DNA of 28,011 bases, taken from Actinomycetota bacterium. GTDB lineage: Bacteria > Actinomycetota > UBA4738 > HRBIN12. The DNA lies in contig DATECH010000126.1 in assembly GCA_035287005.1 (NCBI GenBank), positions 1 to 28,011 on the forward strand, in the 5' to 3' direction. Below the pieces are notes generated by a model. That model searched no databases. It saw only the letters and a list, made by a program, of their open reading frames with translations, and was not told the DNA's origin. Below are positions 8,858 through 27,595 of the stretch, piece after piece; within the stretch, counting starts at the first letter, position 1; each line of letters begins with the position of its first letter. A program made the position numbers and the translations under genes.

Positions 8858-11800
8858 CTAGCCCGCGGAGCCGGGGCTGGCGTGCCACAGCTGCCGCCCC
8901 GACTGCCCGGCGACGGGCTGCACGGGGGCTTGCATCGCCTCGCGCAACCGACCGTCGCGCCGGGCCTCCTGCAGCGCCAGCAGGTCCCAGACGTCTTCGG
9001 CGATCACGCTCACCCCCGCTTTGCCCGTGCGGCGCAATCGCCCCCACACCGCCATCGCAGAGGCATGGAACACCGTGCGCGCCACCTTGCCCTGCACCGA
9101 TGGGAAGACCGTGACCTCGACCGGACCCGTGGCATCGTCCAGGGAGACGAAGATGATCCGCTGGCCACTACGGACCGCCGGGGTCTGCGAGGCGATCTTG
9201 ACCCCGGCAACCATGACCCACTCCTCTTGTCGCTTGTGCCGCAGGTCGCTAGCCTTCGTCACCCCGAGGTCGCGCAGCAACGGCTCGTAGAAGCTCACCA
9301 GATGCCTCGTCGCGTCCATGCCGAAGACGTCGAGCTCCGCGCGGACCACCTCGGCGTCGTTGTACTCGGGGAAGGCGTGTCGCGGTGCGGTGGCATCGGC
9401 CAGGTGCAGCTGGTCGCCTTCGCGTGCCGCTTCGACCGTGATCGCCTCGTACAGATGGGTGCGCCGGCCACCGGGCAGTGCGTCGAACGCACCGGCGTGC
9501 GCCAGCGCCTCGGCCACCGGACGCGGCACCGAGGTGCGCCGCAAGAAGTCCGCCACGTCGAGGAAGGCACGCTCCGCCCGTGCGATCAAGATCGAGCGGA
9601 TGTCGGCACTCGAGATGCCGTGCACATCCTGCAGGCCGATCCGGATGCCCACGGTGCCCTCGCCGGTTTCCTCCGTGACGTATTCGGGTTCGCTGCGGTG
9701 GATGTCCAGCGGCAGGATCGGCACGCCCGCCCGCCGGGCGTCGTCGAGCAGCAACCGCCGCGGATACATGCCGGGATCATGGGTCAAGATCCCGGCCATG
9801 AACTGCGCCCGGTAATGCGCCTTGAGCCACGCCGAGCGATAGGTGGGGACCGCGAAGGCCGCCGCGTGCGCCTTGCAGAACCCGAAGCTCGCGAACTGTG
9901 CGACGTCGTCCCACGTCTGCTCGGCGGCGGCGGGATCCACCCCGCGGGCGGTCGCGCGCTCGAGGAAGTCGGCGCGAAGCGTCGGCAGCATCTGCTGATC
10001 GTCGAGATGGCGCCGCACGTGATCGGCGTAGGTGAGGTCGTAGCCCGCCAACGCCGCGAGCGTGCGGATCACCTGTTCGTGATAGACGATCACCCCGAAG
10101 GTCTCCTGCAGGGCAGGTCGTAGGTCCGGGTGCGCGTACGCGGGACGCTGCATCCCGCTTCGCCGGGCGATATAGGGCCGGATCATGTCCGATTTCACCG
10201 GACCGGGACGGAAGAGTGAGATGTCGACGATCAGGTCTTCGAACCGCTCGGGCTGGAGCTTCTGTAACAGCTCGCGTTGGCCCGGCGATTCGATCTGGAA
10301 GCACGCGAGGGTGTCGGAGGCCCGGATCAGATCGAACGTCGGCTGGTCGTCGAGCGCGATGCGGTCCAGGTCGACCTTTTCGCCGGTGGTGCGGGCGATC
10401 TCGTCCAGCGCATGGCGCATCGACGAGAGCATGCGCACGCCAAGGATGTCGAGCTTGAGGTAGCCAAGCGTTTCGACGTCGTCCTTGTCGGCCTGGATCA
10501 TGCGGTGACCGTTGGCGCTGCGCTCCAGCGGTACCCGCTGCACCAGATCGTGGCTGGCCAGCACGATCCCGCACGGGTGTAGCGCGATGTGGCGCGGGAA
10601 TCCGTCGAGACGCTCGGCCACCCGGAACAGCAGATCGAGCTGGCGCATCGGCAGGTTGAGCCCTTGCAACTCCGGCAGACGCTCGAGCCCGTCGCGAAGA
10701 TGCCGCGCCGAGATGTGGGGGAACGCCTTGGCGACGACACCGAGCTCGACCTCGGGTAGCCCGAGCGCCTTGCCGACCTCGCGAACCGCCGAGCGCGCCC
10801 GATAAGTGTCGATCATGGCCACGCACCCCGCGCGCTCGGTGCCATGACGCGACAGAACCATGTCGTAGACGTCTTCGCGTCGAGCCGACTCGACATCGAT
10901 GTCGATGTCGGGCAGGTCGTCGCGCATCGGGTTCATGAACCGCTCGAACGACAGGTCGTGCCGCAGCGCATCGACGTCGGAGATGCCGGTGAGATAGCAC
11001 GCGAGGGACCCCGCGGCGCTGCCCCGGCACGCCGCGAAGATACCCATCGCCTTGATGTCGGCCACGATGTCGGCCACCGTCAGGAAGTAGGCCGCATAGC
11101 CCATCCGCCGGATCATCGACAGCTCCAGGTGCACGCGGTCGCGCAGGCGTTCAGTTTCGTGGAGACCGCGCTCGTGCACCCCGCGCCAACATCGCTCGGC
11201 GAGCAGGGCGTCGGCGCTTCGCCCCGCCGGTGTCGGGAAGTCCGGGAAATGGACCTGCTTGAGCCCCAGGTCGAAGGTGCACCGGTCGGCGACGGCGAGC
11301 GTGGCGTCGCAAAGCTCGGGATGTTCGTGAAACAGCGCGCGCATCGCGTCGGGTGGTTTCAGCCATCCTTCGGCGTTGGTGCGCGTGACGTTGGACGAGG
11401 CGATCGGCACGATGCGTCGCATGCACTCGAGCGCGTCGGCGACGAACGCGTCCTCCGGCTCGAGGTAGCGCACCGGGTTGGTGGCGATCGCGGTGGCGTC
11501 GAGGCGATCGGCGAATCGCAGCATCGCGCGGACCTCGGCCCCGGAACCCACCTCCACGCGATGCTCCGCGGCAACGACGCAACGCGCATGGCCGAACGCC
11601 TCGCGGTAGGGAGCGGCCAGCGCGGCCGCGGCGTCGACGCGTCCGATCGTCGCCAGGCGCCCCGGATGGGAGCGCGGACCGAGCAGCACCGTCAGACCGG
11701 CGGCGTGCGCACAGATCTGCTCGGTGGCCACCCACGGATCGCCGCGCGCTCCCAGCAGGTGCGCGTCGGTGAGCAGCCGGCACAGGTTCGCGTAGCCGAC

Positions 11801-12082
11801 GTCGTCTTCGGCCAGCAGCACTACGTGCGCATCCCTTCGTTTCCTCCCCTCCCTCGGCGACGGTGCGCGCACCGTGATCGACGCGCCGAGGATCGGGCGG
11901 ACACCTTCGCGCTCGCATGCAGCCATGAACCGAGCGGCGCCGTAGAGCCCGTCGCGATCGGTGAGGGCGACCGCCGGCATGCCGAGGGCGGCGGCCCGCG
12001 CCACGAGTCGTTCGGGCGTGAACGCGCCCTCTTTCAGCGAGAAGCAGGACCGGACGTCGAGGTGGACGAAGGCAGCACCCAT
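8858..12082 (-). CDS. dnaE2: Error-prone DNA polymerase III alpha subunit DnaE2
   Basis: Degenerate PHP start (HLDVRSCFSLKEGA), RGSAAGS, catalytic PDIDIDVE and KLDILG, FQIESPGQ, GFCKAHAAAF, C-terminal OB fold (FVSLDDATG), ends LWHASPGSAG. Lies in a LexA-boxed operon with dinB. Confidence 0.93.
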   Translation of the reverse strand: MGAAFVHLDVRSCFSLKEGAFTPERLVARAAALGMPAVALTDRDGLYGAARFMAACEREGVRPILGASITVRAPSPREGRKRRDAHVVLLAEDDVGYANLCRLLTDAHLLGARGDPWVATEQICAHAAGLTVLLGPRSHPGRLATIGRVDAAAALAAPYREAFGHARCVVAAEHRVEVGSGAEVRAMLRFADRLDATAIATNPVRYLEPEDAFVADALECMRRIVPIASSNVTRTNAEGWLKPPDAMRALFHEHPELCDATLAVADRCTFDLGLKQVHFPDFPTPAGRSADALLAERCWRGVHERGLHETERLRDRVHLELSMIRRMGYAAYFLTVADIVADIKAMGIFAACRGSAAGSLACYLTGISDVDALRHDLSFERFMNPMRDDLPDIDIDVESARREDVYDMVLSRHGTERAGCVAMIDTYRARSAVREVGKALGLPEVELGVVAKAFPHISARHLRDGLERLPELQGLNLPMRQLDLLFRVAERLDGFPRHIALHPCGIVLASHDLVQRVPLERSANGHRMIQADKDDVETLGYLKLDILGVRMLSSMRHALDEIARTTGEKVDLDRIALDDQPTFDLIRASDTLACFQIESPGQRELLQKLQPERFEDLIVDISLFRPGPVKSDMIRPYIARRSGMQRPAYAHPDLRPALQETFGVIVYHEQVIRTLAALAGYDLTYADHVRRHLDDQQMLPTLRADFLERATARGVDPAAAEQTWDDVAQFASFGFCKAHAAAFAVPTYRSAWLKAHYRAQFMAGILTHDPGMYPRRLLLDDARRAGVPILPLDIHRSEPEYVTEETGEGTVGIRIGLQDVHGISSADIRSILIARAERAFLDVADFLRRTSVPRPVAEALAHAGAFDALPGGRRTHLYEAITVEAAREGDQLHLADATAPRHAFPEYNDAEVVRAELDVFGMDATRHLVSFYEPLLRDLGVTKASDLRHKRQEEWVMVAGVKIASQTPAVRSGQRIIFVSLDDATGPVEVTVFPSVQGKVARTVFHASAMAVWGRLRRTGKAGVSVIAEDVWDLLALQEARRDGRLREAMQAPVQPVAGQSGRQLWHASPGSAG

Positions 12083-12118
12083 CTCGAGCTCACGCGGGCG
12101 GTGGGGCGACGGCGACGA

Positions 12119-12811
12119 TCAGCGTTGCCAGATCGCCGCGTCGTGGGCGAAGTGGACGCGGATGGGGTCGAGGAAGCGCAGCCGGTCGATCGAGCGAACA
12201 TACGCCTCGCGATCCGGCGCCCCCGGCAGACCCGAGACCGTCTCGTCGATGCCACCATCCCATTCGGCCCGGGAGCGCACCGCTTGGCCTGCCAGAACGA
12301 CGATCCCCTCGGGCGTCTCGATCACGAGCGATTGGTGGCCCGGCGCGTGCCCGGGTGTCGGCACCAACCGCAGACCGGGCGCGACCTCCGTCTCGCCGTC
12401 GAGCACCTCGTAGGACAGGTGTGGCGCGTCGATCCACTCGGCGATGGTGTAGTCGGGCTCGTGTACCATCCGCCACTCGCGCTCCTGCACGAAGATCGGC
12501 ACTCCGGGTGGCAGGCGAACGTTCTGCCCACTGTGATCGAAATGCAGGTGGCAGTTGGCGACGCCCGTCACGTCCGCGATCGCGATCCCGTGGCGAGCGA
12601 GCGCATCCTCGATCGGCGTGACCCGCGGCGAGAACGTCTCGTCGACCTCGGCATTGCCGATCCCCACCCCGGTATCGAACAGAAAGACGCCGTCGCGATG
12701 GATGACCGCATGCGCGATCGCCGGCCACCACTCGACCCCGAGGAGCATCCGATCCCCCTCGGGCAGACGAAGCTCGGAAACGAGGAACGGGATCACGCGC
12801 ATATCGGCCAC
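12119..12811 (-). CDS. MBL-fold metallo-hydrolase (N-acyl-homoserine lactonase-like family)
   Basis: LFDTG, HxHxDH motif (CHLHFDHSG), PTPGHAPGHQS, LAGQA (usual Asp replaced by Gln), FAHD. Start is GTG 12811 or ATG 12802. Confidence 0.88.
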   Translation of the reverse strand: MADMRVIPFLVSELRLPEGDRMLLGVEWWPAIAHAVIHRDGVFLFDTGVGIGNAEVDETFSPRVTPIEDALARHGIAIADVTGVANCHLHFDHSGQNVRLPPGVPIFVQEREWRMVHEPDYTIAEWIDAPHLSYEVLDGETEVAPGLRLVPTPGHAPGHQSLVIETPEGIVVLAGQAVRSRAEWDGGIDETVSGLPGAPDREAYVRSIDRLRFLDPIRVHFAHDAAIWQR

Positions 12812-12820
12812 GGGTCATAG

Positions 12821-13066
12821 CTAATCCCACAGGCGTTCCATGTGCCACAGATCCTTCTGGCGATCGAAGTACAGATCCCAGACCGCACCGCCACGAGCCT
12901 CGACGCGCCAGTACTCACGGTCGCGCCCGTCGGCCCACCAGCGCCCTTCGATGCGCCACTTGCCGATCACATCGGCGACCTCGTAGCGCCGCCCCCGCCA
13001 CTCGAACGCCGACGGCAACCCGGCGTCGCGTTCGACCCGAACCTCCTCATCGAAGCGCTTCGTCAT
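12821..13066 (-). CDS. DUF6504-family / stand-alone ImuB-C-like small protein (81 aa)
   Basis: MTKRFDEEVRV...PSAFEWRGRRYEV...W..EGRWW...REYWRVE..GG.VWDLYFD....WHMERLWD; first gene after the LexA box. Family assigned from the Trp-rich pattern, not by a search. Confidence 0.8.
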   Translation of the reverse strand: MTKRFDEEVRVERDAGLPSAFEWRGRRYEVADVIGKWRIEGRWWADGRDREYWRVEARGGAVWDLYFDRQKDLWHMERLWD

Positions 13067-13099
13067 CCCCGGTCGTACCTCGCTCCTCACCCCCAGGAA

Positions 13100-13115
13100 T
13101 CGAACGTATGTTCGA
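13100..13115. promoter_or_regulatory. LexA (SOS) box of the mutagenesis operon
   Basis: Perfect TCGAAC-GTAT-GTTCGA, just downstream of the predicted transcription start and 33 nt before the DUF6504 ATG. Confidence 0.92.
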
Positions 13116-13127
13116 GAGGGGAGGATG

Positions 13128-13157
13128 AAGGTACTCCCCTCCTCTGACATCCGTCAA
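13128..13157 (-). promoter_or_regulatory. Sigma-A promoter of the DUF6504-MBL-dnaE2-dinB operon
   Basis: TTGACG(13157-13152)-N18-TACCTT(13133-13128) on the minus strand. Confidence 0.75.
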
Positions 13158-16244: not shown

Positions 16245-17405
16245 ATGCGCATCCTCATCCTGGGCGGCGACGGGTACCTGGGCTGGCCCACCGCGATGCG
16301 GTTCTCGAACCGCGGTCACGAGGTCCACGTCGTCGACAACTACCTGCGCCGCCGTGCACACACGGAAGCCGGCACCGATTCCCTGACGCCGATCGCACCC
16401 GACCTGCCGACCCGTGTCGCGACATGGCACGAGGTCACCGGGCGCACGATCGGCGTGACCGAGGGCGACCTGTGCGACTGGCCGACCGTGGAGGCGACGT
16501 TCCGCGACTTCCGGCCCGAGGCGGTCGTGCACTACGGCGAGATGCCGAGCGCGCCGTACTCGATGAAGGATCGACACCACGCCGTGTTCACACAGACCAA
16601 CAACGTCGTGGGGACCCTGAACGTGTTGTGGGCGATGCGCGACCTCGCGCCCGACTGCCACTTGGTGAAGCTCGGCACGATGGGCGAATACGGCACGCCC
16701 AACATCGACATCGAAGAAGGCTACATACAGATCGTGCATAACGGCCGCACGGACTACCTGCCGTTCCCGAAACTGCCGGGTTCGATGTATCACCTGTCGA
16801 AGGTGCACGACAGCAACAACATCCACTTCGCCTCGCGCGTGTGGGGCCTGCGCGCGACCGACCTCAACCAGGGGGTTGTGTACGGCATCCAGACCGAAGA
16901 GACGCGACTGGACGACCGGCTCGCCACGCGCTTCGACTACGACGACGTGTTCGGCACGGCGCTGAACCGGTTCTGCCTCCAGGCGGTGATCGGTCATCCG
17001 CTGACGGTGTACGGCAAGGGCGGGCAGACACGCGGCTACCTCAATATCATCGACACGCTTCGCTGCATCGAGCTGGCCGTCGAGCATTCGGCCGACGTTG
17101 GTGAGTACCGGGTGTTCAACCAGTTCACCGAGTCGTTCTCGGTTCTGGACCTCGCCGAGCTCGTGCAGAAGGCCGGTGCCGAGTACGGGATCGACGTCAC
17201 GATCGACGAGGTGCTGAACCCTCGTGTGGAGCTCGAGGAGCACTACTACAACCCGACCCACACGAAGCTTCTGGACCTCGGCCTGCGACCGCACCTGCTG
17301 TCGACCGAGCTCGTCGAGTCGATGTTCTCGGTGATCGAACGGTTCCGCGATCGCGTGGTCGCCGACCACATCCTGCCTCGCGACCGCTGGCGCCCGGCGC
17401 AGTGA
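16245..17405 (+). CDS. sqdB: UDP-sulfoquinovose synthase-like NAD-dependent epimerase/dehydratase (SqdB/SQD1/Agl3 family)
   Basis: GGDGYLGWPTA, DNYLRR, SAPYSM, VKLGTMGEYGTPNIDIEEG, YHLSKVHDS, RATDLNQGVVYG, RFDYD..FGTALNRF, RVELEEHYYN. SD GAAGGG; -10 TACCAT about 30 nt upstream. Confidence 0.88.
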   Translation: MRILILGGDGYLGWPTAMRFSNRGHEVHVVDNYLRRRAHTEAGTDSLTPIAPDLPTRVATWHEVTGRTIGVTEGDLCDWPTVEATFRDFRPEAVVHYGEMPSAPYSMKDRHHAVFTQTNNVVGTLNVLWAMRDLAPDCHLVKLGTMGEYGTPNIDIEEGYIQIVHNGRTDYLPFPKLPGSMYHLSKVHDSNNIHFASRVWGLRATDLNQGVVYGIQTEETRLDDRLATRFDYDDVFGTALNRFCLQAVIGHPLTVYGKGGQTRGYLNIIDTLRCIELAVEHSADVGEYRVFNQFTESFSVLDLAELVQKAGAEYGIDVTIDEVLNPRVELEEHYYNPTHTKLLDLGLRPHLLSTELVESMFSVIERFRDRVVADHILPRDRWRPAQ

Positions 17406-17412
17406 GCGCACC

Positions 17413-18459
17413 GTGACGACCGTCCGCATCCTGGGCGTCGTCGCCGCCGTCGCCTTCCTGTTCCTGGCGGCACGTGCCTACGATCGACGGCACATCAGCC
17501 GGCGCAGCCTGCTGATCGTCGGCGGCCTGGCCGTCCTCATGGTCGTGCTCGCCCTGCGGCCCTCGGTCTACGGGCCGGTGTTCGGGTGGTTCGACATCGC
17601 TCCCGGCAACGAACGGCGTGCCCTGTTCGCGGCGATCGTCGCGATCATCACGCTGTTCTTCCTCGTCTTGCGCGTGCAGTCCGAGGGCGACACGAACGAA
17701 CGAACGATGCGACTACTGGTCGAGGCGCTGGGCCGCGAGCGTTTCGACTGGGAGCGTGCCGCCACCCTGCCGGAAGGTCGGCGGCTGATCGTCGTCATCC
17801 CCGCGTTCAACGAGGCGGGAAACGTCGGGCCGGTCGTTCGCTCGCTGCCCGAGCATCTCGGCGGCATGCGGGTGATCCCCCTGGTGGTCAGCGACGGGAG
17901 CACCGACGGCACCGCCGAAGAGGCTAGACGCGCGGACGCGCTCGTTACCGAGCTGCCGATCAACCGCGGAGGCGGGTTGGCGTTACGCGTCGGCTACGAG
18001 ATCGCCCTGCAGCTCGGCGCGGAGATCGTCGTGACGATGGATGCCGACGGTCAGCACCTCGCCGGCGAACTCCCCACGATGATCGCGCCGCTGCTCGCCG
18101 GCGAGGCGGACTACGTGAACGGCTCGCGGTTGCTCGGCGACTTCGAGCGCGACAGTCTGATCCGTCACATCGGCGTCCACGTATTCTCCCGCATCGTGTC
18201 GATCCTCACCGGACGGCGCATCACGGACCCGTCCAGTGGCTACCGTGCCGCGCGCGCAGACCTCCTGCATCGCTTGGTATTGGAGCAAGACCAGTTCTGG
18301 ACGAGCGAGATCCTGATCGAGGCGCTGCGTCACCGCGCGAAGGTGGTCGAGGTGCCGGTGACGATCGTGGCGCGGGCCAGCGGCACCACCAAGAAGCCGC
18401 GATCCCTTCGCTACGGTTGGAACTTCTCCAAGGTGATCATCCAGACCTGGCTTCGATGA
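17413..18459 (+). CDS. Fusion: N-terminal DUF2304-like membrane domain plus GT2 polyprenol-phosphate glycosyltransferase (DPM1/PpgS-like)
   Basis: About 110 aa with three hydrophobic segments ending in LLVEALGRE, then IVVIPAFNE, VSDGSTDGT, NRGGGLAL, TMDADGQH, VNGSR, ITDPSSGYRA, VEVPV. Confidence 0.82.
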   Translation: MTTVRILGVVAAVAFLFLAARAYDRRHISRRSLLIVGGLAVLMVVLALRPSVYGPVFGWFDIAPGNERRALFAAIVAIITLFFLVLRVQSEGDTNERTMRLLVEALGRERFDWERAATLPEGRRLIVVIPAFNEAGNVGPVVRSLPEHLGGMRVIPLVVSDGSTDGTAEEARRADALVTELPINRGGGLALRVGYEIALQLGAEIVVTMDADGQHLAGELPTMIAPLLAGEADYVNGSRLLGDFERDSLIRHIGVHVFSRIVSILTGRRITDPSSGYRAARADLLHRLVLEQDQFWTSEILIEALRHRAKVVEVPVTIVARASGTTKKPRSLRYGWNFSKVIIQTWLR

Positions 18460-22892: not shown

Positions 22893-24041
22893 TCAGTACA
22901 GGAACATCGGCTTGCCGTCCACGTGCCGGATCTTCGGGCGGTAGGCCTCGGCGTCGTAGAGGGACTGCGCGTCCACTCGCTTGACCCCCTGACCCACCAC
23001 CGTCAGTGGCACGTTCGCGTAGTTCCCGTTGCGAAGCGCAACGAGCCTCCCGAACGCGCCCTCGACGATCAGATCGGTGGCCATGACCGCGTAGTTGATC
23101 GCCACCATCAGATCGAGCGAATCGGGGGTCCCGGATCGCATCAGATAGCCGATCTGCTGGTAGATCATGTCCTGGCCCGTCCGCTGCTTGAGCAGCTCGC
23201 TCGTGACCTGGCCGATGCCACCCAGCTTCCGGTGGCCGTAGGCATCCTCCTCGCCGTCGAGGACCATCTCGCCGTCGACGAGCGAGGCACCCTCGCTGAT
23301 CGTCATCATCGCGTAGTTGCTCGGGTTGGCCCGCTTGTCGGCCATCAGTAGCTCGGCCAGCCGGTCGATATCGAACGGCACTTCGCTGATGATGGCCCGG
23401 TCCACACCCGACAGGTACGCCGACACCAGCGATGTCTCCCCGCTGTAGCGACCGAACACCTCCACCACCGCCAACCGCTCGTGGGAGCCGGCGCTCGTGC
23501 GTAGTTGATGCACGAAATTCACCGTGCGAGTGATGGCGGTGGAGAATCCGATGCAGTAGTCGGTCCCGTGCACGTCGTTGTCCATCGTCTTGGGGATGGC
23601 CACCACCGGCACGCCCTCCTCGTGCAGCCGCAGGGCGAACGACAGCGTGTCGTCGCCTCCGATCGGGATGAGGGCGCCGATCCCCAGCCGCTCGATCACG
23701 CGCAGCACGTGCCCGGTGTGGTCTCGCGGGCCGTCGTCGGTCCGGCCCTCACTGAGGAACGGCGGTTCATCGGCGGCCTTCACCTTGGCCGGGTTCGTCC
23801 GAGACGTGTGGAGGAACGTCCCACCCGAACGGTCGATCGTGCGCACCGCGGTGGGATCCAACACCTCGGTGCACACGTGCACCGACAACGGGTTCTCGGG
23901 GTCGATCTCCAGCAAGCCTCCCCAGCCGCGCCTGATCCCCACGACCTGGTGCCCCTCGGAGGCCGCGCGCCCGACGACCGCCTTGATGCAGGCGTTCAAG
24001 CCGGGAACGTCGCCGCCGCCCGTCAAGATCCCGATCTTCAT
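22893..24041 (-). CDS. pfp: Phosphofructokinase, predicted PPi-dependent
   Basis: [22 protein letters not shown], donor-specificity motifs GGDDT and PKTMDND (Asp104/Lys124 type). Probably leaderless: TAGGCT(24054-24049)-N7-ATG. Confidence 0.85.
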
Positions 24042-24078
24042 GCCGCGAAGCCTACGACGCTCCAGGCGAGCCGTACGC

Positions 24079-25095
24079 TCACTCGCACAGCACTTCGGGG
24101 ATCCGCCACAGCTCGGGGGGCAGCGTCTTGGTTCCCTGCACCTCGGCGATCGGCGTCGGATCGATCTTCGCGCCGTGGATCCCGATCACGGAGCCCCATC
24201 GCCGGGCGAGCGCCTCGTCGACGGCGGTGCGACCGAGCCGTGTCGCGAGCACGCGATCGAACGCGAGGGGTGAGCCACCGCGCTGGACATGGCCGAGCAC
24301 CGTCACGCGCGTCTCGAAGCCCGTACGACGGCCGATCTCCTCCGCCACGACGGCGCCGACGCCTCCCAGGCGCGGGTACCCGTTCTCGTCCAGCGCGTAG
24401 TCGGGGATCGGCATCGACCCGGGCACCGGAAGCGCCCCTTCCGAGACGACCACGATCGAGAACGGCCTGTGCAGCGCGTGCACCTCGCGGATCCGCCGGC
24501 ACGCGAGATCGACGTCGAACGGATGCTCGGGCACCACGATCACGTCCGCGCCCGTCGCCACCCCCGCCGTGTACCCGATCCACCCCGCGTGACGGCCCAT
24601 CACCTCGCACACCATGACCCGGTTGTGGCTCTCGGCGGTGCTGTACAGGCGATCGATCAGGTCCGTCGCGATCTGCGCGGCCGTTTGGAAACCGATGCTC
24701 GCATCCGTGCCCCGGATGTCGTTGTCGATCGTCTTGGGGATGCCGATCACGGGCACATCCAACCTGGCGGCCTCGCCGATCGTCCCCTCTCCGCCGATCA
24801 CGATGAAGCCCTCGAGCCGGTGCACCTCGAGGGCCTCGCGCACCTTGGCAACGCCCCCGTCGACGCGATGTGGCTGCGTGCCGCTGGTCCCCAGGATCGT
24901 GCCGCCCCGCGGCAGGATCCCCCGGACATCATCGCTGGTGAGCTCGTCGGCGTGCCCCTCGAGAACGCCGCGCCATCCGTCGCGGAACCCGACCAGCGTG
25001 CACCCTCGCTCGCCGTTGCCGTGGCGCACCACCGACCGGATGGCGGCGTTCAGACCGGGGCAGTCGCCCCCGCCGGTCAGGACTCCCAGGCGCAT
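24079..25095 (-). CDS. pfkA: 6-phosphofructokinase, group III, predicted ATP-dependent
   Basis: [26 protein letters not shown] and PKTIDND (Gly104/Lys124 type), [17 protein letters not shown]. Probably leaderless: TAGGGT(25108-25103)-N7-ATG. Confidence 0.9.
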
Positions 25096-25155
25096 GGCAG
25101 GCACCCTACCGGACGGGTCCGCCTGCTCCCGGGGGACGCCGGGTAGGATGACTTC

Positions 25156-25305
25156 ATGCTCGCCCGGTTGCTCCCCGAACACATCGGGATCCTCGAGGGG
25201 ATCTTCCTCGCCGGCCTGCTCGGGCTCACGGCGATCGTCGGGATCTTCGCGCTCTACGTGGTCGGCCAGCAGTTTCGCAACCCCGGCCGTCCGCAGCGCC
25301 GCTAG
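25156..25305 (+). CDS. Small 49-aa single-pass membrane protein (unannotated)
   Basis: TAGGAT(25144-25149)-N6-ATG leaderless arrangement. Translation: MLARLLPEHIGILEGIFLAGLLGLTAIVGIFALYVVGQQFRNPGRPQRR*. Strong GC3 codon bias; a TM helix followed by an Arg-rich tail; fills the gap between pfkA and arcC. Confidence 0.8.
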   Translation: MLARLLPEHIGILEGIFLAGLLGLTAIVGIFALYVVGQQFRNPGRPQRR

Positions 25306-26246
25306 GGTCCGTCCGCGACGATCTCGGTGCCGGCCTCGCCCGTCAGGGCCGCCAGCGCTTGATCGAGATCCGCGATCACCGCGCGCGCGCCGCCGTCGGA
25401 CACGAAGTGGATCGCGGCTTCCACCTTGGGGCCCATCGAGCCCTTGCCGAACTCGCCGCGCTTCAGCAGCAACCTGGCCTCCGCCACGTCCATGCGCTCG
25501 ATCTCCTCGGGCATCAGCGAGCCGAAACCCCGCTGCACCCGCTGCACGTCGGTGAGGATCAGGAGCACCTCCGCGCTCACCTCGCGAGCAAGGATCGCGG
25601 CCGCGAGGTCCTTGTCGACCACGCCCTCCTTACCGATCAGCCGGGGTCCCTTCTCGATGACCGGCACCCCGCCCCCACCACCGGCGATCACGATCACACC
25701 GTCGGCGACGAGCCCGCGGATCACGGGCGTTTCGACGATCGAGTAGGGCTTGGGACTCGGCACGACCCGGCGCCACCCCCCGTGCGGATCCGGTTTCATC
25801 ACCCAGCCGCGCTGCTCCTCGCGCCGGTGTGCCTGTGCCTCGGTGAAGTAGGGGCCAACGTATTTCGTCGGACTCCGGAACGCCGGGTCCTGTGGGCGCA
25901 CGCGGGTCAGCGTCAGGATCGTCACGACCGGGCGCTCCATGCCGCGCTCGAAGAACACGTCACCGATCGTCACCTGCAGCAGATACCCGATCTGACCCTG
26001 ACTCTCGGCACCGCACACGTCCAGCGGCATCGGGTGCACCTGCTTCGCGGCCGCCTCCTGCTGCATCAAGATCCGACCGACCTGCGGGCCGTTGCCGTGC
26101 GTCACGACGACCTCCCAGCCCTTCGAGGCGATGTCGGCGATCCGCTCCGCTGCGACGCGGGCCGCCGCGTACATCTCCTCGTAGGTATCGGGCGCCCCTC
26201 GTCGCAGCAGCGCGTTGCCACCCAGGGCGATCACGACACGCTGCAT
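25302..26246 (-). CDS. arcC: Carbamate kinase
   Basis: VIALGGNAL, THGNGPQVG, CGAESQGQIGY, GWRRVVPSP, GGGGVPV, VVDKD, GSMGPKVEAA; SD GAAGGAG. Confidence 0.96.
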   Translation of the reverse strand: MQRVVIALGGNALLRRGAPDTYEEMYAAARVAAERIADIASKGWEVVVTHGNGPQVGRILMQQEAAAKQVHPMPLDVCGAESQGQIGYLLQVTIGDVFFERGMERPVVTILTLTRVRPQDPAFRSPTKYVGPYFTEAQAHRREEQRGWVMKPDPHGGWRRVVPSPKPYSIVETPVIRGLVADGVIVIAGGGGGVPVIEKGPRLIGKEGVVDKDLAAAILAREVSAEVLLILTDVQRVQRGFGSLMPEEIERMDVAEARLLLKRGEFGKGSMGPKVEAAIHFVSDGGARAVIADLDQALAALTGEAGTEIVADGP

Positions 26247-26284
26247 CGCGCTCCTTCCCGTCGAGGGCGCCGGAGCGCCGCCGC

Positions 26285-27595
26285 CTACAGGACCGGCGCC
26301 AAGATATCCGGGAGCTGCGGCGAATCTGGGAGCATCTCGAGGTCGTAGCGAACACGCACCGCCGGTTTGGCGATGTCGATCACGCTACGCAGGTCGATCG
26401 GCGTGCCGATCACGACAACGTCTACGTCCGCCGCGTCGATGATCTTCGCCATCTCGGCGAGCTGTCCGTCCGAGTAGCCCATCGCCGGCAGCACGTGCCC
26501 GACGTCGTACTTCTCGAAGGTCTCGGCGATCGTGCCCACCGCCCACGGTCGTGGATCGACGATCTCGGCCGCGCCCATGCGCTGCGCGGCGACCACGCCG
26601 GCTCCGATCTTCATCTCCCCGTGTGTCAGGGTCGGGCCGTCCTCGACGACCAGCACCCGCTTGCCCGCGATCGCATCCGGATCGTCGCAGCTCACGAGCG
26701 AGTTCGCCTTGGCGATGGTGGCGCTCGGATTGACCTCGGCGATCGTGCGTTCCAGCTGTGTCACCTGCTCGGGCGTGGCCGAATCGATCTTGTTGATCAG
26801 CACCACGTCGGCACCACGCAGGTTCGTCTCGCCGGGATGGTATGTCAGCTCGTGTCCGGCGCGCAGCGGGTCCACGAGAGTGATCCACACATCCGGCGTG
26901 TAGAACGGAATGTCGTTGTTGCCCCCGTCCCACAGCAAGACGTCGCACTCCGCCTGCGCCTGTTCCAGGATCGCGCCGTAGTCGACGCCCGCGTAGATCA
27001 CCGTGCCGCTGGCGATGTGCGGCTCGTACTCCTCGCGCTCCTCGATCGTGCACTTGTGCAGGTCGAGATCCGACAACGCGGCGAACCGCTGGACCGCCTG
27101 GGCGGCGAGGTCGCCATACGGCATCGGGTGTCGCACCGCGACCACACGCTTGCCGGCGTCCTTCAACGCCCCCGCCACGGCGCGGGTCGTCTGGGACTTC
27201 CCGACGCCCGTGCGCACGGCGGTGACCGCGACGGTCGGCACCGTGGCCCTGATCATGGTCGCGTCCGGACCCAGCAGCACGAAGTTGGCCCCGGCCGCCA
27301 TGACGGTCGACGCGGTATGCATCACGTACTCGTGCCGCACGTCGGAATAGCTGAACACGACGTCGTCGACGTCGAGCTCACGGATCAACCGCACAAGCTC
27401 CGACTCGTCGTAGATCTGGATCCCGTCGGGGTAGTGCGCGCCGGCGAGGGAGGCGGGGTAGCGCCGATCGTTGATGAAGGGGATCTGTGTGGCTGTGAAC
27501 GCCACGACCGTCGAGCCGGCATCGTCGCGATACACGGTGTTGAAGTTGTGGAAGTCGCGCCCAGCGGCACCCATGATCAGCACTCGACGTGGCAT
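26285..27595 (-). CDS. arcE: Arginine synthetase ArcE-like P-loop protein (often annotated as cyclic 2,3-diphosphoglycerate synthase family or GTPase)
   Basis: RVLIMGAAGRDFHNFN, VAFTATQIP, P-loop RTGVGKSQT, RHPMPYG, CTIEEREEYEPH, WDGGNND, VEDGPTLTHG, PAMGY. Directly upstream of arcC; SD GAAAGGA. Confidence 0.72.
   Translation of the reverse strand: MPRRVLIMGAAGRDFHNFNTVYRDDAGSTVVAFTATQIPFINDRRYPASLAGAHYPDGIQIYDESELVRLIRELDVDDVVFSYSDVRHEYVMHTASTVMAAGANFVLLGPDATMIRATVPTVAVTAVRTGVGKSQTTRAVAGALKDAGKRVVAVRHPMPYGDLAAQAVQRFAALSDLDLHKCTIEEREEYEPHIASGTVIYAGVDYGAILEQAQAECDVLLWDGGNNDIPFYTPDVWITLVDPLRAGHELTYHPGETNLRGADVVLINKIDSATPEQVTQLERTIAEVNPSATIAKANSLVSCDDPDAIAGKRVLVVEDGPTLTHGEMKIGAGVVAAQRMGAAEIVDPRPWAVGTIAETFEKYDVGHVLPAMGYSDGQLAEMAKIIDAADVDVVVIGTPIDLRSVIDIAKPAVRVRYDLEMLPDSPQLPDILAPVL

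What the first reader, a model, noticed from the sequence alone, without database searches (positions are those of the whole stretch)
25302..27595. arcE-like plus arcC: arginine synthetase energy-conserving pathway in an actinobacterium
Seen in sequence: a P-loop protein starting RVLIMGAAGRDFHNFN...VAFTATQIP, 38 nt upstream of carbamate kinase, with no arginine deiminase or ornithine carbamoyltransferase in the window. Established (from memory): this family, usually labelled cDPG synthase or GTPase, was shown in Thermococcus kodakarensis to be arginine synthetase (arginine + ADP + Pi <-> citrulline + NH3 + ATP), which with OTC and carbamate kinase conserves more ATP than the deiminase route. 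Inference: this organism uses the pathway for ATP generation from arginine, or for ArgG/ArgH-independent arginine synthesis.
Basis: partly seen in the sequence, partly recalled or inferred. Interest (0 to 1): 0.68.

Follow-up and report, generated by a model that had tools for sequence, protein, structure and literature searches.

The report
Arginine synthetase–carbamate kinase gene pair
An uncultured soil actinobacterium carries a copy of arginine synthetase (an enzyme described in 2024 that makes ATP while breaking down arginine) next to carbamate kinase; it is an ordinary, widespread member of a known pathway and most likely serves to break arginine down, because the genome also has the usual genes for making it.

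Summary
Observation confirmed. A 436-aa P-loop gene (27595-26285, minus strand) lies 38 nt upstream of carbamate kinase (26246-25302). It is 59-61% identical over 431 aa to Thermococcales orthologues of TK2200/ArcE, and all 101 family-conserved positions match. True cDPG synthetases give only 13-14% identity, and their K145/R146 substrate pair is replaced by T129/G130. The genome (53% complete) also has argC, argH, carB and contig-cut parts of argJ and argG, and no arcA was found. So ArcE is not needed to bypass ArgG/ArgH here, and the catabolic role (2 ATP per arginine with OTC and carbamate kinase) is the best reading. No OTC was found, but its site falls in an assembly gap that also lacks pheS, pheT and tyrS, and 53 of 61 genomes searched in the order have it. 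arcE is in 51 of those 61, next to arcC in 40, and in about a quarter of sampled Actinomycetota. The 2024 PNAS paper already lists Actinomycetota, and this scan has noted the pathway in over 100 other genomes. Activity was not tested. New member of a known kind; low interest.

The parts
26285..27595 (-). arcE, arginine synthetase (ATP-forming arginine deiminase) family, 436 aa; databases label it 'predicted GTPase' or 'cyclic 2,3-diphosphoglycerate synthase'
   Evidence: 59-61% identity over 431 aa to Thermococcales TK2200 orthologues; 101 of 101 conserved positions shared; only 13-14% to solved cDPGS
26247..26284 (-). 38-nt spacer with a ribosome-binding-like GAAGGAG before arcC; no terminator-like site, so co-transcription is likely (inferred)
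25302..26246 (-). arcC, carbamate kinase, 314 aa
   Evidence: TIGR00746 equivalog 376 bits, over its cut-off of 358.25; motifs intact

Best explanation
The pair is two thirds of the arginine synthetase pathway. ArcE converts arginine + ADP + Pi to citrulline + NH3 + ATP. An unlinked ornithine carbamoyltransferase (argF, after pheT in relatives; in an assembly gap here) converts citrulline to ornithine and carbamoyl phosphate. Carbamate kinase makes a second ATP and pulls the unfavourable OTC step forward. Net yield is 2 ATP per arginine, against 1 for the deiminase route. Shown here: the genes, their family, their linkage and the gene inventory. Inferred: the activity (from homology to TK2200), co-transcription, the presence of argF in this organism, and the catabolic direction in vivo.
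For: Identity and conserved residues against Thermococcales ArcE. Fold hits cDPGS and then LpxK 4EHY, the same structural neighbour reported for TK2200p. arcE-arcC adjacent in 40 of 51 genomes of the order; 24 of 71 distant homologues have arcC and/or OTC within 4 kb. arcA in only 4 of 61 genomes, matching the reported ArcA/ArcE complementarity. Own genome has argC, argH, carB and parts of argJ and argG; for such genomes the paper predicts a catabolic role. OTC over cut-off in 53 of 61 genomes, and its site lies in a gap between G000 contigs C70 and C23 that also lacks pheS, pheT and tyrS. Relatives G002 and G010 have lost the arg biosynthesis operon in contiguous sequence yet keep arcE, arcC and argF.
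Against: No assay. No bacterial ArcE characterisation was found in the library. TK2200 itself could not be fetched; close orthologues stood in for it. argF is not seen in this assembly and is never linked to arcE in the genus loci examined. It is a single, biosynthetic-length copy in most relatives, and whether it runs backwards in vivo is untested. Seven genomes of the genus have lost arcE from the locus and kept arcC, five with no arcE found at all, so arcC can be kept without it.
Confidence: 0.75

Rival explanations
1. The protein is ArcE but works mainly in the synthetic direction (citrulline + NH3 + ATP to arginine), as a cheaper route beside or instead of ArgG/ArgH when ammonia is high.
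For: The reaction is near equilibrium and reversible in vivo in T. kodakarensis. The genome can make carbamoyl phosphate (carAB) and probably ornithine. One relative, G048 (94% complete), has argCJBD, argF, carB and arcE but no argG or argH was found.
Against: This genome has argH and argG. TK ArcE has a high ammonia Ks, about 110 mM as ammonium sulfate. Tight linkage to carbamate kinase points to breakdown, since carbamate kinase could not supply carbamoyl phosphate in T. kodakarensis.
Confidence: 0.12
2. Same reaction, but the main purpose is supply of ornithine, ammonia or carbamoyl phosphate from scavenged arginine rather than ATP.
For: These are the shown roles in T. kodakarensis: proline via ornithine, pyrimidines and hydrogenase via carbamoyl phosphate. 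Relatives without argC keep arcE and argF.
Against: carB is in 60 of 61 genomes, so carbamoyl phosphate supply does not need ArcE. Carbamate kinase would destroy it. This rival overlaps with the best explanation.
Confidence: 0.08
3. The actinobacterial clade has shifted to another guanidino or ureido substrate, feeding carbamate kinase through a different transcarbamylase.
For: OTC is unlinked. Some families of the order place arcC beside other transcarbamylase-like genes. The genome has a 273-aa amidinotransferase-fold gene of unknown substrate.
Against: All 101 conserved positions equal those of Thermococcales ArcE, which rejected agmatine, guanidine and D-arginine. No other transcarbamylase was found in this assembly or in most of the genus.
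Confidence: 0.04
4. It is a cyclic 2,3-diphosphoglycerate synthetase, as the NCBI label on close homologues says, tied to the two neighbouring phosphofructokinases.
For: NCBI names of P0021 and P0046; shared fold; two pfk genes downstream.
Against: 22 bits, E 6.7e-4 to 9sxb and E 0.47 to M. fervidus cDPGS; 13-14% structural identity; K145/R146 replaced by T129/G130; Thermococcales ArcE is over four times closer.
Confidence: 0.01

Closest known systems
Arginine synthetase ArcE (TK2200) and the arginine synthetase pathway ArcE-ArcB-ArcC of Thermococcus kodakarensis (Michimori et al. 2024, PMC11032458; 2026, PMC13260591; RHEA:79573)
   Same: Full-length homologue, 59-61% identical to Thermococcales orthologues with all conserved motifs; occurs with carbamate kinase and without arcA; Actinomycetota already listed among the hosts.
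   Different: Host is an uncultured high-GC actinobacterium from soil metagenomes; arcE is directly upstream of arcC; the genome keeps ArgG/ArgH and CPS, which T. kodakarensis lacks (more like Pyrococcus furiosus); activity untested.
Cyclic 2,3-diphosphoglycerate synthetase (Methanothermus fervidus, PDB 8ORK/8ORU; PMC10690619)
   Same: Same overall P-loop architecture; best structural match in the PDB.
   Different: 13-14% identity; substrate-binding K145/R146 absent; gene context is arginine catabolism.
Arginine deiminase pathway (ArcA-ArcB-ArcC)
   Same: Shares OTC and carbamate kinase; same overall conversion of arginine to ornithine.
   Different: First step is hydrolytic and irreversible, 1 ATP per arginine. 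arcA was not found here; found in 4 of 61 genomes searched.

Membership tests
ArcE arginine synthetase | Full-length, high similarity to TK2200 | tested here: met
   59-61% identity, 76-77% similarity over 431 aa to 19 Thermococcales orthologues identified by published TK2200 primers (1 mismatch at the start in L265, 1 at the end in L244/L246) and pyrB-pyrI synteny. TK2200 itself was not retrieved.
ArcE arginine synthetase | Conserved family residues intact (GAAGRDFHNF, P-loop, RHPMPYG, EEREEYE, WDGGNND, HPGE, EDGPT) | tested here: met
   101 of 101 positions, nearly all taken from the conserved columns of an alignment without Thermococcales, are identical in L244, L265 and L251
ArcE arginine synthetase | P-loop NTPase core resembling LpxK (4EHY) | tested here: met
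   AlphaFold model pLDDT 92.8; Foldseek hits cDPGS, then LpxK 4EHX/4EHY
ArcE arginine synthetase | Catalyses Arg + ADP + Pi <-> Cit + NH3 + ATP | not testable with these tools
   Needs an in vitro assay
Arginine synthetase pathway | Carbamate kinase present | tested here: met
   TIGR00746 over cut-off, 38 nt downstream
Arginine synthetase pathway | Ornithine carbamoyltransferase present | tested here: inconclusive
   Not in the 53%-complete assembly; its syntenic site is in an assembly gap with pheS/pheT/tyrS; present in 53 of 61 genomes searched
Arginine synthetase pathway | arcA usually absent | tested here: inconclusive
   Not found in G000 (incomplete); the PF02274 hit is a 273-aa DDAH-like protein at 87 bits against a cut-off of 489; arcA in 4 of 61
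Cyclic 2,3-diphosphoglycerate synthetase | P-loop K145/R146 that bind 2,3-DPG | tested here: not met
   Aligned positions are T129/G130, invariant in the ArcE alignment
Cyclic 2,3-diphosphoglycerate synthetase | Closer to cDPGS than to ArcE | tested here: not met
   13-14% against 60%
Cyclic 2,3-diphosphoglycerate synthetase | 2-phosphoglycerate kinase partner in the genome | not tested
   No such gene seen next to arcE in the loci read; no genome-wide search run

The most novel reading that the evidence does not exclude
In this actinobacterial order ArcE runs in the synthetic direction under ammonia-rich conditions and has fully replaced ArgG/ArgH in some members (relative G048: argCJBD, argF, carB and arcE, with no argG or argH found). 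That would give a natural, probably mesophilic, one-step route from citrulline to arginine in bacteria. It is not needed in the window's own genome, which has argG and argH.
Probability: 0.12. Interest if true: 0.5.

Novelty: new member of a known kind. Interest (0 to 1): 0.2.

Why it matters
Little by itself: the enzyme, the pathway and its presence in Actinomycetota were published in 2024. It corrects a common database mislabel (cDPG synthase or GTPase) and shows the pathway is typical of a large uncultured order found in soil and sediment. No bacterial ArcE assay was found in the library, and a modelling paper (PMC13763154) wants ArcE for Corynebacterium but has only the hyperthermophilic archaeal enzyme. 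A high-GC actinobacterial homologue is a convenient candidate to test.

Tried and rejected
cDPGS reading: rejected on identity and substrate residues. The own-genome PF02274 hit as a hidden arcA: rejected, it is a short DDAH-like protein. 'Absent OTC refutes catabolism': rejected, assembly gap. Idea that the lineage cannot make ornithine: rejected, argC in 47 of 61 and in G000. PF00764 missed argG because only the C-terminal half is on the contig. Attempts to fetch TK2200 itself failed: no PNAS supplement held, not among representatives or homologue lists, exact primer absent from metagenomes; a degenerate pattern gave orthologues instead. The tree is the quick method only, midpoint-rooted and without a true cDPGS row, so it was used for placement only. 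Promoter/terminator scan found nothing. No RNA holder listed. No arcE remnants in loci that lost the gene. No complex prediction was sent, as no binding claim is made.

Full report
Observation. The window is contig C126 of G000, a 1.27-Mb assembly that is 52.85% complete and 69% GC. Close homologues are labelled Actinomycetota, and near-identical DNA is held by soil metagenomes. The second passes the NCBIfam carbamate kinase cut-off (376 against 358 bits). The first hits no NCBIfam family and only a short cobW/P-loop stretch in Pfam. Downstream are two phosphofructokinase genes.

What is known. Michimori et al. 2024 (PMC11032458) showed that TK2200 catalyses arginine + ADP + Pi to citrulline + NH3 + ATP, reversibly and specifically for L-arginine. 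They named the ArcE-ArcB-ArcC route the arginine synthetase pathway (2 ATP per arginine), noted low similarity to cDPG synthases, and listed Actinomycetota among the hosts. They judged ArcE catabolic where ArgG/ArgH are also present.

Family test against ArcE. TK2200 could not be fetched by name. I took the published primers for its first and last codons and searched metagenomes with a degenerate pattern built from the first primer and the family's opening motif. This gave 24 loci. Nineteen full-length proteins, at least 86.6% identical to each other, have TK2200-type ends (1 mismatch to the start primer in L265, 1 to the end primer in L244 and L246). L261 and L264 have pyrB-pyrI-like genes a few genes away, as TK2196/TK2195 are from TK2200. 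The window protein is 59-61% identical to them over 431 residues. All 101 checked conserved positions, nearly all from an alignment without Thermococcales, are identical in the three orthologues aligned.

Family test against cDPGS. The best PDB sequence hit is cDPGS 9sxb at 22 bits, and M. fervidus cDPGS scores E 0.47. The model (pLDDT 92.8) matches cDPGS at 13-14% identity, then LpxK including 4EHY, the neighbour reported for TK2200p. The cDPGS residues K145 and R146 that hold 2,3-DPG align to T129 and G130, which are invariant in the ArcE alignment. In a quick tree the protein nests in a well-supported clade (SH-aLRT 99) of homologues mostly from its own order, inside the family that holds the Thermococcales; this fits long residence in the order.

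The rest of the genome. It has argC, the start of argJ, the second half of argG, all of argH, and carB with part of carA; the partial genes are cut by contig ends. No arcA was found. The one amidinotransferase-fold gene is a 273-aa DDAH-like protein far below the arcA cut-off. No OTC or ATCase was found. Laying the single-contig relative G030 on G000 shows G000 contigs tiling the region, with gaps exactly where pyrB and pheS-pheT-argF-tyrS lie. As pheS, pheT and tyrS are essential, the missing argF is most simply an assembly gap.

Relatives. Of 61 genomes searched in the order (G000 included): arcE 51, arcC 55, OTC over cut-off 53, argG 50, argC 47, carB 60, arcA 4. arcE and arcC are adjacent in 40 of 51. 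Kin are not independent, so these are descriptions, not statistics. argF sits after pheT, apart from both arcE and the arg operon. G002 and G010 lack the arg operon in contiguous sequence but keep arcE, arcC and argF, so argF is kept without canonical biosynthesis. Across Actinomycetota 104 of 401 sampled genomes match, 8 of them a divergent subfamily; in the phylum of a Bathyarchaeia genome 110 of 251. Among 71 more distant homologues from many phyla, 24 have arcC and/or OTC within 4 kb and 10 have both. The tallies include unpublished genomes (G018, G041; also G061, G106, G175, G368, G440, G446); no conclusion depends on them.

Mechanism. Most likely the pair breaks arginine down with substrate-level ATP gain at two steps, using the unlinked argF in reverse, with carbamate kinase pulling the flux. 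The ArcE activity is inferred from homology (about 0.93 likely); the catabolic direction from gene content (about 0.75 overall). Holding ArgG/H and CPS together with ArcE and carbamate kinase risks futile cycles, so regulation is expected; relatives have an argR-like gene in the arg operon, untested. The synthetic role is not needed here but is open for G048.

Verdict. Real, correctly identified and ordinary: a new member of a family and pathway published in 2024, already noted by this scan in 110 findings from at least 103 genomes. Interest 0.2.

Noticed in passing
G048:C8:20000-38000 (L186): Relative from another family of the order, 94% complete: argC-argJ-argB-argD are followed directly by unrelated genes; no argG or argH found genome-wide, while arcE, argF and carB are present. 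Candidate for ArcE-based arginine synthesis.
   Followed up: partly
L070-L076 (G016, G005, G006, G007, G026, G017, G008): Genomes of the same genus in which arcE is cleanly deleted from the locus while arcC stays. G005 has arcA-argF elsewhere; G008 and G017 carry a second, 67-69% identical arcE elsewhere; G016 (97% complete) has neither arcE nor arcA found.
   Followed up: partly
L266, L267 (G002:C11, G010:C153): The arg biosynthesis operon (argC to argH) is deleted in contiguous sequence, while arcE, arcC and argF remain: likely arginine auxotrophs, or citrulline/ornithine users.
   Followed up: partly
L192:4489-5778 and L193-L198 (family f16 of Actinomycetota, 8 of 8 genomes): A divergent ArcE-like subfamily, 30-35% identical, that has lost the GAAGRDFHNF, PMPYG and GGNND motifs and lies near endonuclease III, glycerol kinase and enoyl-CoA hydratase-like genes. 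No Pfam hit; not evidently cDPGS; function unknown.
   Followed up: partly
window 25156-25305 (+): 49-aa hydrophobic micro-ORF converging on arcC; the two stop codons share one CTAG. Earlier scan notes report a similar ORF in other genomes.
   Followed up: no
window 22893-25146 (-): Two tandem, 35%-identical phosphofructokinase genes downstream of arcC, conserved in the genus; no link to ArcE shown.
   Followed up: partly
L033:904-6757 and equivalent loci: In the genus, arcE-arcC follow a formate-dehydrogenase-like molybdoenzyme, NuoF-like, Fe-S, MobA and metallo-beta-lactamase-fold gene run; in other families an EEP phosphoesterase follows.
   Followed up: partly
G000:C106:5495-6313 (L001:1252-2073, -): 273-aa amidinotransferase-fold (DDAH-like) protein below all curated cut-offs; substrate unknown.
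   Followed up: partly
L063 (G030:C1:2720612-2723786), G052:C6: Complete arcB-arcC-arcA deiminase operons in genomes that also hold arcE, an exception to the usual either-or pattern.
   Followed up: no
window 8858-13150 (-) and 16245-18459 (+): A DNA polymerase III alpha gene (dnaE2-like by its neighbours, my reading), and a UDP-sulfoquinovose-synthase-like gene (484 bits, below cut-off) with a glycosyltransferase.
   Followed up: no
G035:C1, L190: arg operon lacks argJ and argD (argC-argB-argR-argG-argH); PF01960 finds none in this 96%-complete genome.
   Followed up: no
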